Shown piece after piece: positions 61,093 to 64,000 of a DNA stretch of 64,000 bases. The stretch comes from a virus. Its lineage: Duplodnaviria > Caudoviricetes. Each line of letters begins with the position of its first letter. Position 1 is the stretch's first letter. The notes beneath the pieces are model-generated. The model ran no database searches and was not told the DNA's origin. It saw only the letters and a program-made list of their open reading frames with translations. A program made the position numbers and the translations under genes. The stretch covers positions 32,001-96,000 of the IMG/VR virus record IMGVR_UViG_3300010163_000006; one strand, 5' to 3'.

Positions 61093-61122
61093 AATAATCC
61101 CCCAAATATTTGGGGGATTATT
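61093..61122 (-). terminator. Terminator closing array 1
   Basis: Perfect 30-nt palindrome AATAATCCCCCAAATATTTGGGGGATTATT with an A-tract on its left (U-tract on the minus strand). Confidence 0.75.
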
Positions 61123-61128
61123 GTCTCT

Positions 61129-61595
61129 TCACCAAGCATCACAAGACTGAACCAAGCCTCACCATGACAGAACTAAAATAAACTATACTTAGCTTCACCA
61201 TCACTCTACATGACGTTGCCTCACCAGTACCAAACAACACAATACCTGACAATATCATACCATGACGATACTTGGCTGAACCATCACGTTAATATACCCG
61301 ACACCACTCAACTTTACCAATACACCACCCACTTCAATACACCTGACAACACTCTACCAATACATGACGGGACTGAACGATGCCACACCAACACATTGCA
61401 TCACCCCACGAAACATGACAAAGCCTTACATTCACTTAACTCTGCAACACTATGCGTAACCTTAACGTTACTGTGCAACTCACAGCTATGCCTTTACTGA
61501 ACATCAGGTCATGTAATACTATATACATACCATCACATGACCTGACTACACCACACTTTAATACGCCACACTTCACTTTACCATGGCTGTGATAT
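61129..61595 (-). repeat. Array 1: non-coding 5-nt-periodic array (minus strand NGY-NN, about 90 units); putative guide-RNA precursor
   Basis: Plus strand parses acc-aa gca-tc aca-ag act-ga acc-aa gcc-tc acc-atg aca-ga act-aa...; starts about 10 nt after the stop codon of the Cas7-like gene. Confidence 0.85.
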
Positions 61596-61605
61596 TTGTG
61601 GCTGA

Positions 61606-62238
61606 TTAGTGTTCTGAAGCATTACCCCCGATTACATTTCCGTCGGCATCAAGCTCTTCCCAGACAAATTTACCCTTTCCACTGTTGCGCCACTGACCCG
61701 TTCCGTGGTAGAATCCATAGTCCAACCATTCACGAACGAGTGTTTCATCTTCATCCACCATACACAGTACGGTGAATTCGTTAGTGGAGCCGACCGGCAC
61801 GGTTTCTGAACATGCCAGTGAAACACGTTCACCCTGTGGTGTGTTGGCTCTTAACGGTCTCTGACACAACGTTATCTCACCATTAACGTTGATGACGGAT
61901 TTGCGTTCCTTGATAAAGATCAGACCGTCTATCTGTTTCTTAAACGCTTTGATCTTTGATGAAGCGGTACCTTTAACCTTTTTGAGGAAACTACAGGTCT
62001 CCTTGAAGTAACCTCGCCACTGATAGTCGTAAATGATCAGATTTCCGTCATCGTCTCTCGGGAATACGGTTGTTCCCTTTTCAACAGTCGGATCAACACC
62101 GACAGATGCTACCTCATCATCGATTGTGGTTGCATCGGGTGACTTCGAAGCGATGTAGCTTCTGTAGATTTCCTGGTCATTGGTTGCTGTGCCAAGCAGC
62201 TCCTCGATAAATGTTACGCGTACTCTGATTTCTTTCAT
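61606..62238 (-). CDS. Stand-alone Cas7/Csm3-like RAMP-superfamily protein (210 aa)
   Basis: RAMP motif order: IRVRVTFIEELLG (beta1), FPRDDDGNLIIYDYQWRGYFKE (P.I.gss.KG..R-like), ETVPVGSTNEFTV (E.v..Gt.F.f), G-rich loop GTGQWRNSGKGKF; AAGGAGG RBS. Confidence 0.75.
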   Translation of the reverse strand: MKEIRVRVTFIEELLGTATNDQEIYRSYIASKSPDATTIDDEVASVGVDPTVEKGTTVFPRDDDGNLIIYDYQWRGYFKETCSFLKKVKGTASSKIKAFKKQIDGLIFIKERKSVINVNGEITLCQRPLRANTPQGERVSLACSETVPVGSTNEFTVLCMVDEDETLVREWLDYGFYHGTGQWRNSGKGKFVWEELDADGNVIGGNASEH

Positions 62239-62341
62239 AGAAATCAACCTCCTTTAGATAAATAATAAGTAGTTTATGGATATCTCATTTCTGATATATC
62301 CATAATAATTAAATATATTTCAAAAATAAGAAAAATAGAAA

Positions 62342-62362
62342 GTCCGGGGATAATCCCCGGAC
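62342..62362 (-). terminator. Intrinsic terminator upstream of the RAMP gene promoter region
   Basis: GTCCGGGGAT-A-ATCCCCGGAC with an A-rich tract on its left. Confidence 0.7.
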
Positions 62363-62377
62363 ATGAAATTCTTCTAT

Positions 62378-62764
62378 TTATGGAGCCGGATATATGACAA
62401 AAGTTTTCAGACCTTTGATCTTGAACCCGCCGTCTTCTGTCGGTTCTCCGAACACTCTTGGGACGGCAATCAATTTGGGATTGTTTGACACAAATTCCTT
62501 GATCATTTTGTCAGATTGGTCAAATTCAACATCTATCCACCCACCAACAAATCCCATATCATAACCAGTTATCACTCCTATGATATCATTTATATCAACT
62601 CTCAAATGTAAAATATCTACTGTTTTACAGTCTGTTCCCTTCACAACCTTCATACCAACCAAACCATGTGTAGATATATGTTTGTATAAGTCTTTAAATG
62701 ATAGACATTCGTTGATTCTGACGGGAATGGTTTTCCTGATCTTCTTAGGGATCCTGACTTTCAT
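62378..62764 (-). CDS. Hypothetical protein between array 2 and the RAMP gene
   Basis: AAGGAG RBS before MKVRIPK; about 128 aa. Confidence 0.6.
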   Translation of the reverse strand: MKVRIPKKIRKTIPVRINECLSFKDLYKHISTHGLVGMKVVKGTDCKTVDILHLRVDINDIIGVITGYDMGFVGGWIDVEFDQSDKMIKEFVSNNPKLIAVPRVFGEPTEDGGFKIKGLKTFVIYPAP

Positions 62765-62791
62765 TAATTTATCACTCCTTTCCATATAATA

Positions 62792-62828
62792 AAAAATAAC
62801 CCCCGTAAGGTGGGAGGAGGTTATTTTT
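62792..62828 (-). terminator. Terminator-like hairpin closing array 2
   Basis: AAAAATAACC...GGTTATTTTT arms around a GC-rich imperfect inner stem. Confidence 0.55.
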
Positions 62829-62840
62829 CTTTAAGATATG

Positions 62841-64000
62841 TCGTTACCATTACTCTACAAGACCCAACTTTGATGAACCATTACTGAACCAAACCGCGCT
62901 TTGCCTTACAACACTTGGCATCGCCGCACCGTAACACCGCTATACTGGGCTGAACTATGCCTTTACGCAACAGCACTATTCGACGCTACACCATAACTTC
63001 ACAATACCCACGCGGTACAATGCGTTACAGGACATAGCCTTTACTGGTACCATTCGACACCTTACCTGCACATGACATCGCCACCTATCACAACACAACA
63101 CCAATACAGAACAATACCGAACGCCACACTACCTTTACGATACATACGAACACGAAGCTCAATATTACTATACTTAACATTACCCGTTACGTGACCATGC
63201 GGCACCTGACCTTACCAAAACATTACTCTACGCCTCCTGGCTTTACCCAAACATTACGCTCGCAGCATTACTGCACCATCACAGCACCATACGTAAACTG
63301 ACTATACATTACCGATACAATACGAATCAGTACGGAACATCACGGAACCCATTACGTAACGTAACGCCACTTGACCGAACTGCACCCTCACAAAACTATC
63401 CCATACTGTACCATTAATGTACACTGCGTGACTAAACACGACTCTACCTGTACTTTACTATGAGCAACGTATCTCCGCTCCGCTTTACCTTTACTAAGCA
63501 TTACCTGGTATTGCTTAACCTTGCCTATACGATACCAAGCGTGGCATTTCTTCACCGCACCGTTTACTCTACATTACTCGACTTCACTCCAACATTACCC
63601 TCACATGGCATCATAAGACCACACTTTACCTTTACGACACCTCACAGAACAGGACCAAACCATGCCTGAACATTACCTTTAGATCACAATACGCGACGAT
63701 ACTTCACCTTACCATTACCAGAGAAAACGTCACCATACCGATACCGCAACCATGCTTCACCTTACTTAACCCTTACTTGGCTTGGCGGAACAAAACTATA
63801 CTATACCGTTACATAATCATACCGCACCCGGCCTTACCCATAACATCACAAAACTTTTCTGTACACTTCCTTTGCGGAAACTATGCCCGACACAGCATCA
63901 CGACACTATACCGGAACGCCACGTCACTCTACGGTACACCACCATGCTATACCAGCACAGTGCATTACTTGACATTGCTTTACCTTACCAATGCTGTACA
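62841..64000 (-). repeat. Array 2: non-coding 5-nt-periodic array (minus strand NGY-NN, over 200 units), running off the window end
   Basis: Minus strand from 64000 reads TGT-AC AGC-ATT GGT-AA GGT-AA AGC-AA TGT-CA AGT-AA TGC-AC TGT-GCT GGT-AT AGC-AT GGT-GG... Confidence 0.88.

What the first reader, a model, noticed from the sequence alone, without database searches (positions are those of the whole stretch)
61093..64000. Candidate minimal RNA-guided system: lone Cas7-like RAMP gene between 5-nt-periodic NGY-NN arrays
Seen: a 210-aa ORF (61606-62238, minus) with RAMP/Cas7-Csm3-type motifs in the right order, including the C-terminal G-rich loop GTGQWRNSGKGKF. No cas1/2/3/5/6/10 and no CRISPR repeat-spacer array appear in the window. 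Two long non-coding tracts (61129-61595 and 62841-64000+) share one grammar: a near-constant GY dinucleotide every 5 nt on the gene's strand, with the other positions variable and non-repeating. Array 1 begins just after the RAMP stop codon, and both arrays end at hairpins, so both look like minus-strand transcripts. Established: Cas7-family proteins polymerise along RNA with a fixed nucleotide step per subunit and present bases for target pairing. Inference: each 5-nt unit is one protomer footprint, the constant NGY is the protein-bound handle, and the variable NN positions together spell a gapped target. That would be a one-protein programmable effector, possibly aimed at competing phages/MGEs or host genes. 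I recall a recent report of viral RAMP proteins guided by alternating GGY/NN RNAs (called VIPR) but cannot verify it here; if correct, this locus would be a divergent member with relaxed NGY.
Basis: partly seen in the sequence, partly recalled or inferred. Interest (0 to 1): 0.97.

Follow-up and report, generated by a model that had tools for sequence, protein, structure and literature searches.

The report
Phage VIPR system with kilobase guide arrays

Summary
Two minus-strand tracts carry a G-Y dinucleotide every 5 nt: window 61129-61595, and 62843 to beyond the window end (really about 1.53 kb). They are the only such tracts in the 155,671-bp phage genome. The 210-aa gene between them folds with high confidence as a Cas7/Csm3-type RAMP. 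It also aligns over its full length to the experimentally characterised Vipr protein of phage SUSP1. The family is large (5,675 homologues). In 81 of 82 IMG/VR relatives and 11 of 11 other contigs, a period-5 tract touches the gene.

It is a divergent member. The handle is xGY rather than GGY. That fits replacement of the two SUSP1 residues that read the first G (H17 to T, D177 to Q), while the G2 and Y3 contacts W and R are kept. There is no 3' tail and no recognisable vap gene. The arrays are cut into modules of about 6-8 pentamers by 6-nt steps that restore a full GGY. Relaxed motifs and staggered arrays are already mentioned in the preprints.

No targets were found. Transcription and RNA binding could not be tested. 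Verdict: a real, new member of a known kind.

The parts
61606..62238 (-). vipr gene: 210-aa stand-alone RAMP (Cas7-like) protein with G-loop GTGQWRNSGKGKF
   Evidence: The ORF has an AAGGAGG ribosome-binding site. The AF2 model has pLDDT 92 and pTM 0.86. Foldseek best hits are Csm3, type VII Cas7 and Cas7-11, E 6e-8 to 1e-6, TM 0.5-0.58. The family profile hits type VII Cas7 at E 3e-5. hhalign against SUSP1 Vipr gives probability 82%, E 1e-5, over the full length. A three-copy model gives ipSAE 0.61 against a best control of 0.15.
61129..61595 (-). vrRNA array 1: about 90 pentamers G-Y-N-N-N, directly 3' of the vipr stop codon, in about 15 modules
   Evidence: There is no terminator between the gene and the array, so co-transcription with vipr is inferred.
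61093..61122 (-). Intrinsic-terminator-like hairpin closing array 1 (13-bp stem, then a T run)
62843..64000 (-). vrRNA array 2, the part inside the window. The whole array runs to window-equivalent 64372 (genome 94843-96372): about 1.53 kb, about 300 pentamers, about 60 modules. It starts 3 nt after the stop codon of a 434-aa Sigma70_r4 plus RNAP alpha-CTD gene that lies outside the window.
   Evidence: A 300-nt piece shows no selected RNA structure (z = -0.31). No Rfam family or hammerhead ribozyme was found.
62800..62817 (-). Terminator-like hairpin closing array 2
62378..62764 (-). 128-aa ORF between array 2 and vipr, with its own terminator at 62342-62362. It sits where a vap gene would, but is not recognisable as one.
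   Evidence: It has one homologue among 5.8 billion proteins and no Pfam or PHROG match. The AF2 model has pLDDT 35. It is absent from the 82 related loci.

Best explanation
This is a phage-encoded VIPR (Viral Interference Programmable Repeat) system of a divergent clade.

Proposed mechanism:
1. The two arrays are transcribed on the minus strand as 3' extensions of protein genes. Array 1 follows vipr. Array 2 follows a sigma-r4/alpha-CTD gene.
2. Vipr protomers polymerise head to tail along the RNA, one per 5-nt unit.
3. Each protomer pair sequesters the fixed G and Y and exposes the two following bases.
4. The exposed dinucleotides of successive units pair with a DNA target in which every third base is skipped, and the bound filament blocks transcription of a competing mobile element.

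What is specific to this clade:
- The first G of the canonical GGY handle is not read.
- There is no structured 3' tail.
- Guides are chained without spacers. Each module of about 6-8 pentamers begins with a full GGY, created by a 1-nt phase step.

Status of each step. Shown here: the fold, homology to Vipr, the array grammar, gene-array linkage, hypervariable arrays, and the predicted self-association. Taken from the literature on SUSP1 and P. fulva, and only inferred for this locus: RNA binding, the 1-nt-skip rule, dsDNA silencing, and inter-phage targets.
For: Fold: AF2 pLDDT 92. PDB neighbours are all Cas7-family RAMPs at E about 1e-7. The family profile hits a type VII Cas7 and the Csm4 G-loop.

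Homology to a tested Vipr: hhalign against SUSP1 ALH47069.1 gives probability 82%, E 1e-5, colinear from residue 1 to the C-terminus. The SUSP1 locus itself was recovered by the same period-5 scan.

Residue mapping onto the cryo-EM description:
- SUSP1 W178 and R179, which contact G2 and Y3, correspond to W183 and R184 here. W183 is invariant and R184 nearly invariant (at least 90%) in the 68-sequence alignment.
- The G1 readers H17 and D177 correspond to T17 and Q182. This matches an unconstrained base before the fixed G in every family member examined.

Linkage: a period-5 tract abuts the gene on its strand in 81 of 82 IMG/VR relatives, 5 of 5 close relatives and 6 of 6 distant representatives.

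Hypervariability: arrays of 80%-identical proteins share almost no 13-mers with this one.

Modules: 6-nt steps are spaced 5k+1 nt apart, most often 31 and 36 nt. In 83% of them the extra base is G, against 20% at ordinary unit boundaries. The same punctuation is seen in relatives.

Self-association: a three-copy model gives ipSAE 0.61 against a best control of 0.15. That mark was reached by 20 of 30 proteins solved as pairs and 1 of 23 solved as single chains. Runs agree in at least 21% of contacts and partner pLDDT is at least 75. The arrangement is head to tail and involves the G-loop. The pass may reflect the model's memory of solved Cas7 filaments.

Other support: the base composition of the two reading positions resembles codon positions 1 and 2, as expected if the skipped base falls on the wobble position. 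There is no cas1 and no CRISPR array.

Literature.
Against: - No target was found.
- A plain HMM search of the SUSP1 genome with the family profile finds nothing. Homology to a tested Vipr therefore rests on one profile-sequence alignment at 82% probability, plus fold and motif.
- There is no conserved 3' tail and no recognisable vap, both typical of the characterised type II systems.
- Modules of 6-8 units are shorter than the 9-16 repeats of characterised vrRNAs.
- Expression of the arrays could not be examined.
Confidence: 0.88

Rival explanations
1. The RNP is real but acts on RNA rather than DNA. It would resemble type III or type VII Cas7 backbones, binding or cleaving complementary transcripts of competitors or of the host.
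For: The closest solved folds are the RNA-targeting Csm3, type VII Cas7 and Cas7-11.
Against: The only tested Vipr systems bind dsDNA and silence from either strand. The protein aligns colinearly with SUSP1 Vipr, including the helical bundle that holds the skipped DNA base. No nuclease partner is encoded nearby.
Confidence: 0.06
2. The arrays are not guides against outside targets. They would be decoys or sponges: long tracts of handle motifs that soak up Vipr proteins of competing phages, or that buffer the phage's own Vipr.
For: Satellites and phages carry solo vrRNAs that redirect a competitor's VIPR. The arrays here are unusually long (about 2 kb in all) and no target was found.
Against: The arrays sit beside a cognate, intact, single-copy vipr gene. 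The variable positions are information-rich and hypervariable between close relatives, which a pure sponge does not need. The failed target search has little power because the host and its mobile elements are unknown.
Confidence: 0.05
3. The period-5 tracts are DNA-level features unrelated to the neighbouring gene, such as decayed microsatellites, curved DNA, or an origin or packaging signal.
For: None beyond the absence of direct RNA evidence.
Against: Only two of the five positions are conserved and the other three are near-random, unlike a decaying microsatellite. The signal is strand-specific. It co-occurs with the gene in 92 of 93 related loci across 40-80% protein identity while the sequence itself turns over. 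Terminators bracket the tracts on the gene's strand.
Confidence: 0.01

Closest known systems
VIPR type II systems of Escherichia phage SUSP1 and a Pseudomonas fulva prophage (bioRxiv 10.64898/2026.04.26.720920, .720927 and 2026.10.15.759431)
   Same: - A stand-alone RAMP of about 200 aa with the G-loop motif GxGxWR.
- Pentanucleotide tandem-repeat RNA genes flanking it on the same strand.
- Encoded by a phage.
- No cas genes and no CRISPR array.
- The G2 and Y3 contact residues W and R are conserved.
   Different: - The handle is xGY, not GGY. The G1-reading residues H17 and D177 are replaced by T and Q.
- There is no invariant 3' tail or pseudoknot.
- Guides are not separate 100-nt genes but modules of 6-8 repeats chained in 0.47-kb and 1.53-kb tracts.
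- There is no vap1 homologue.
- Sequence similarity is detectable only by profile comparison.
- The host phage is a 155-kb genome that encodes its own multisubunit RNA polymerase.
Non-canonical VIPR variants already listed in the preprints: YNNNG / NNNNG repeats and 'staggered arrays' (fig. S18 legend), and WGT/NN and TGH/NN motifs (10.64898/2026.10.21.760802)
   Same: The handle is relaxed or altered at the first position. Arrays have neighbouring vrRNAs that overlap by one nucleotide. Two vrRNAs that each begin and end with GG and share one G would give the 6-nt Y-to-Y step seen here.
   Different: I could not see the figures or the supplementary tables, so I cannot say whether this protein clade is one of the seven published types or one of the 21 non-canonical clusters. 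The second preprint states about 10 repeats per non-canonical array; here there are about 390.
Cas7 backbone of class 1 CRISPR effectors (Csm3 of type III-A, type VII Cas7)
   Same: RRM core, G-rich loop and beta-hairpin thumb. Polymerisation along a guide RNA with a fixed step and periodic base flipping.
   Different: The step is 5 nt rather than 6. There is no repeat-spacer array, no Cas5, Cas6, Cas10 or Cas1/2, and no second RRM. The guide information is interleaved with the handle instead of lying in one spacer.

Membership tests
VIPR system | Vipr protein: a small stand-alone RAMP with RRM core, glycine-rich loop and thumb | tested here: met
   AF2 pLDDT 92. The secondary-structure order is beta-alpha-beta-beta-alpha-beta, with a long hairpin at residues 123-147 and the G-loop at 178-190. 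The top 40+ PDB neighbours are Cas7-family proteins.
VIPR system | Homology to an experimentally characterised Vipr (SUSP1 ALH47069.1) | tested here: met
   hhalign probability 82%, E 1e-5, residues 1-207 against 1-192. GVGDWR aligns with GTGQWR. Caveat: the template is a single sequence, and an HMM search of the SUSP1 genome gave no hit.
VIPR system | Tandem pentanucleotide repeats with a conserved GGY (or related) handle and hypervariable NN, next to vipr on its strand | tested here: met
   G is 90-95% and Y 95% at unit positions 1-2, and the other positions are near-random. The handle is xGY. The preprint accepts YNNNG as a related consensus.
VIPR system | Gene-array linkage conserved across homologues | tested here: met
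   81 of 82 loci, 5 of 5 and 6 of 6.
VIPR system | No CRISPR array and no adaptation genes; mostly viral or proviral | tested here: met
   The genome is a virus record with direct terminal repeats and has no Cas1. There are no CRISPR-like repeats.
VIPR system | vipr-accessory protein (vap1-6) in the operon | tested here: not met
   The only candidate is the 128-aa ORF. It is a near-orphan with no family and no usable model, and it is absent from relatives. The preprint says vap is 'typically' present, so it is not strictly required.
VIPR system | Discrete vrRNAs of 9-16 repeats capped by an invariant structured 3' tail (type II architecture) | tested here: not met
   There is no recurring tail, no Rfam hit and no selected RNA structure. 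The arrays are instead punctuated by 6-nt steps. This fits the 'staggered array' architecture that the preprint describes for other types.
VIPR system | vrRNAs are expressed and co-purify with Vipr | not testable with these tools
VIPR system | Targets recognised by the NN / 1-nt-skip code; natural targets on competing mobile elements | tested here: inconclusive
   Matches did not exceed shuffled controls in the phage's own genome or in 1 Mb of related phage DNA. Exact scans of three public collections gave chance-level, unrelated hits. The host and its mobile elements are unknown.
CRISPR-Cas class 1 (type III / VII) | Cas7 encoded together with a repeat-spacer array and other cas genes | tested here: not met
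   Pfam RAMPs (PF03787) does not match the protein.

The most novel reading that the evidence does not exclude
This very large, mostly metagenomic clade (1,680 clusters at 50% identity) may use a vrRNA grammar that has not been characterised.

- The G1 pocket is lost, so the fifth base of each unit is free.
- Guides have no tail and are only about one helical turn long (6-8 protomers).
- Guides are chained by the dozen in kilobase 3'-UTR-like transcripts. A GGY phase step may serve as the start, stop or processing signal.
- The RNA might even be used without processing.
- The freed fifth base might be a third reading base.

A partial correlation would also make the handle itself evolvable: the residue between the two G-loop glycines (T, I/M or F-S) tracks the base after the fixed G (U-rich, C-rich or A-rich).
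Probability: 0.2. Interest if true: 0.7.

Novelty: new member of a known kind. Interest (0 to 1): 0.45.

Why it matters
VIPR is a recently described way of aiming a protein at DNA with RNA. This locus shows that a blind read of raw sequence can recover such a system.

It adds a well-anchored example from an uncultured 155-kb phage. The example has the largest guide load seen here: about 390 pentamers in about 75 modules.

The residue mapping gives a simple, testable reason why some VIPR clades use xGY rather than GGY: the H17 and D177 equivalents are lost while the W and R equivalents are kept.

The 5k+1 punctuation gives a rule for cutting such arrays into individual guides. That rule is needed before targets can be predicted for the thousands of gut-phage members of this family.

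Tried and rejected
- **Period-5 Fourier power on 200-nt windows:** no signal, because of the phase steps. Replaced by lag statistics and a parse.
- **Pfam and PHROGs on the three ORFs:** nothing.
- **Self-targeting:** modules of at least 6 units were decoded under nine rules (NN with 0-3 skipped bases, NNN, shifted register). None matched the phage's own genome better than shuffled modules.
- **Targets in related phage DNA:** the same result in about 1 Mb of related loci. The 10 perfect hits come from one 12-base guide on one conserved gene, which is within the shuffled range.
- **Exact scans of public collections:** the 10-unit guide gave 0 hits in viral contigs, 2 in genome contigs and 4 in metagenome contigs. 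The 9-unit guide gave 2 hits in viral contigs. These numbers are as expected by chance. The hit ORFs are unrelated to each other and to this phage, and other guides do not converge on them.
- **Idea that N3N4N5 are whole sense codons:** stop triplets were 7 against 17.3 expected under one parse. The effect fades under a G-only parse, and family-wide the stops are no more depleted than several ordinary triplets. Dropped.
- **A simple residue-180 to base code:** only partly holds.
- **128-aa ORF as vap:** no evidence.
- **Neighbouring genes as conserved accessories:** none is shared with relatives.
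Full report
**What is there**

The window is bases 32001-96000 of a single 155,671-bp virus record with direct terminal repeats. On the minus strand the order is as follows.
- A 434-aa gene with Sigma70 region 4 and an RNA polymerase alpha C-terminal domain. It lies just outside the window.
- Array 2, beginning three bases after that gene's stop codon and about 1.53 kb long (window 62843 to window-equivalent 64372).
- A terminator-like hairpin (62800-62817).
- A 128-aa ORF (62378-62764) with its own terminator.
- The 210-aa gene (61606-62238).
- Array 1 (61129-61595).
- A strong terminator-like hairpin (61093-61122).

A multisubunit RNA polymerase beta-prime-like gene lies further upstream. 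It resembles jumbo-phage polymerases at about 25% identity.

**Is the periodicity real?**

Yes.
- Lag-5 identity is 0.43-0.44 against about 0.23 at other lags.
- 61-62% of GY dinucleotides are followed by another GY exactly 5 nt later, against 11% after shuffling.
- A parse into units gives 80-82% pentamers, 89-92% of them starting with GY. That score is far above all 200 shuffles and above the complementary strand.
- In the whole genome only these two tracts score.
- Unit positions 3-5 are nearly unconstrained.
- The RNA has no more predicted structure than shuffled sequence (z = -0.31).
- No Rfam family, including hammerhead ribozymes, matches.

**Second-level grammar**

The pentamer phase advances by one base about every 6-8 units. 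The spacings are 5k+1 nt, most often 31 and 36 nt in this phage. Across relatives the order of frequency is 31, 36, 26 and 41 nt. At these steps the extra base is G in 83% of cases, against 20% at ordinary unit boundaries. Each module therefore begins with a full GGY.

This is the geometry expected if neighbouring vrRNAs each begin and end with GG and share one G. It matches the wording of the preprint's legend for 'staggered arrays'. I could not see that figure.

**The protein**

It has no Pfam or PHROG match but belongs to a very large family. There are 5,675 homologues at E <= 1e-3 in the 90% clusters and 1,680 clusters at 50% identity.

With a 68-sequence alignment, AlphaFold2 gives pLDDT 92 and pTM 0.86. 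All the best PDB neighbours are Cas7-family RAMPs: Csm3, type VII Cas7 and Cas7-11, with E 6e-8 to 1e-6 and TM 0.5-0.58. The sequence profile alone reaches a type VII Cas7 at E 3e-5 and the Csm4 G-loop at E 2e-3. The nearest viral model in BFVD is a 55%-identical gut-virome protein already labelled 'Cas system-associated RAMP superfamily protein'.

A three-copy model passes the binding test. The score is 0.61 against a best control of 0.15. That mark was reached by 20 of 30 proteins solved as pairs and 1 of 23 solved as single chains. Runs agree in at least 21% of contacts and partner pLDDT is at least 75. The arrangement is head to tail and uses the G-loop face. This may partly be the model's memory of solved Cas7 filaments.

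**Link to VIPR**

Four 2026 preprints are relevant. Three describe Viral Interference Programmable Repeat systems. The fourth reports non-canonical VIPR arrays as part of a survey of prokaryotic noncoding sequence. In the three VIPR papers:
- A stand-alone RAMP (Vipr) polymerises on vrRNAs made of GGY/NN pentamers.
- The GGY is held by the protein.
- The NN dinucleotides pair with dsDNA while every third target base is skipped.
- Transcription is silenced.
- Natural targets are satellites and competing phages.

I located the SUSP1 locus with the same period-5 scan. The family profile aligns to its Vipr over the full length (probability 82%, E 1e-5). A plain HMM search of the SUSP1 genome found nothing, so the relationship is remote.

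Mapping the cryo-EM contacts gives this picture:
- W178 and R179, which hold G2 and Y3, correspond to W183 and R184. W183 is invariant and R184 nearly invariant (at least 90%) in the alignment.
- H17 and D177, which read G1, correspond to T17 and Q182.

In every family member examined, the base before the fixed G is unconstrained. Loss of the G1 pocket is therefore a simple explanation for the xGY handle. This step is an inference from one alignment, not a structure.

**Linkage and turnover**

A period-5 tract abuts the gene on its own strand in 81 of 82 IMG/VR relatives. The same holds in five close relatives at 71-80% identity and in six distant representatives. Arrays of the 80%-identical proteins share almost no 13-mers with this one, so the arrays turn over much faster than the protein.

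**Accessory gene**

The 128-aa ORF has one homologue, no family and no usable model. No neighbour of the gene is conserved in relatives. In the temperate 40-55 kb relatives the gene instead sits beside a divergent pair of XRE-type repressor genes.

**Targets**

None was found.
- Decoding modules under nine rules gave no excess over shuffled modules in the phage's own genome or in about 1 Mb of related phage DNA.
- Exact scans with the two longest clean guides gave chance-level numbers of hits in viral, genome and metagenome collections.
- Those hits lie in unrelated ORFs, and no other guide converges on them.

Guides of 12-16 specified bases are too short for collections of this size, and the host is unknown. 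The negative result therefore has little weight.

One weak positive signal exists. The base composition of the two reading positions resembles codon positions 1 and 2 of coding DNA, as expected if the skipped base falls on the wobble position. An apparent depletion of stop triplets did not survive controls.

**Verdict**

The locus is a VIPR system with a relaxed handle, no tail, no recognisable vap and very long punctuated arrays.

Relaxed motifs (YNNNG, WGT/NN) and staggered arrays are already mentioned in the preprints. I therefore class it as a new member of a known kind.

Three questions remain open:
- Whether this clade is among the seven published types.
- How the GGY steps are used.
- What the roughly 75 guides are aimed at.

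Noticed in passing
L001:6373-7677 (-), genome 96373-97677, just beyond the window end: A 434-aa protein joins Sigma-70 region 4 (E 2e-8) to an RNA polymerase alpha-subunit C-terminal domain (E 4e-17). Array 2 starts 3 nt after its stop codon. The close relative L087 has a Sigma70_r2 gene upstream of its vipr.
   Followed up: partly
L001:10425-11819 (-), genome 100425-101819: A multisubunit RNA polymerase beta-prime-like gene (Pfam Rpb1 domain 2), 24-26% identical to the polymerases of phiKZ-like and phiR1-37 jumbo phages. The phage probably transcribes with its own polymerase.
   Followed up: partly
vipr residue 180 (window 61699-61701) and the arrays of L002-L105: The residue between the two G-loop glycines is equivalent to SUSP1 position 175 in the Y3 pocket. 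It tracks the base after the fixed G. T180 lineages are U-rich and A-poor. I/M180 lineages are C-rich with T at most 0.19. The F180-S181 clade is A-rich (0.55-0.65). F180-G181 members do not fit, so this is not a clean code.
   Followed up: partly
window 64199-64244 and 63677-63712; 64117-64157 and 63953-63988: Pairs of modules inside array 2 share runs of 3-4 identical pentamers and then diverge, as if they were variant guides for related target alleles.
   Followed up: no
L091:7189-8645: A 71%-identical relative carries two tandem 214-aa genes before a 0.85-kb array. Only the second gene was shown to be a Vipr homologue; the first was not compared.
   Followed up: no
L004-L083, about 0.5-1.5 kb upstream of vipr: In about 68 of 87 related loci, mostly 40-55 kb phages, vipr lies next to a divergent pair of XRE-type helix-turn-helix genes. 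This looks like a lysis-lysogeny switch region.
   Followed up: partly
L104:1-88 and L087:5083-6027: Near vipr in relatives there are other conflict-related genes: an AcrVA2-like gene in a MAG contig labelled Ruminococcus sp., and a PemK-toxin-domain gene plus a tRNA cluster in the 243-kb relative.
   Followed up: no
window 62239-62341: The AT-rich region upstream of vipr holds an inverted repeat (GGATATATC ... GAGATATCC). It could be an operator or a phage-polymerase promoter element. Sigma-70 consensus scans are uninformative here.
   Followed up: no
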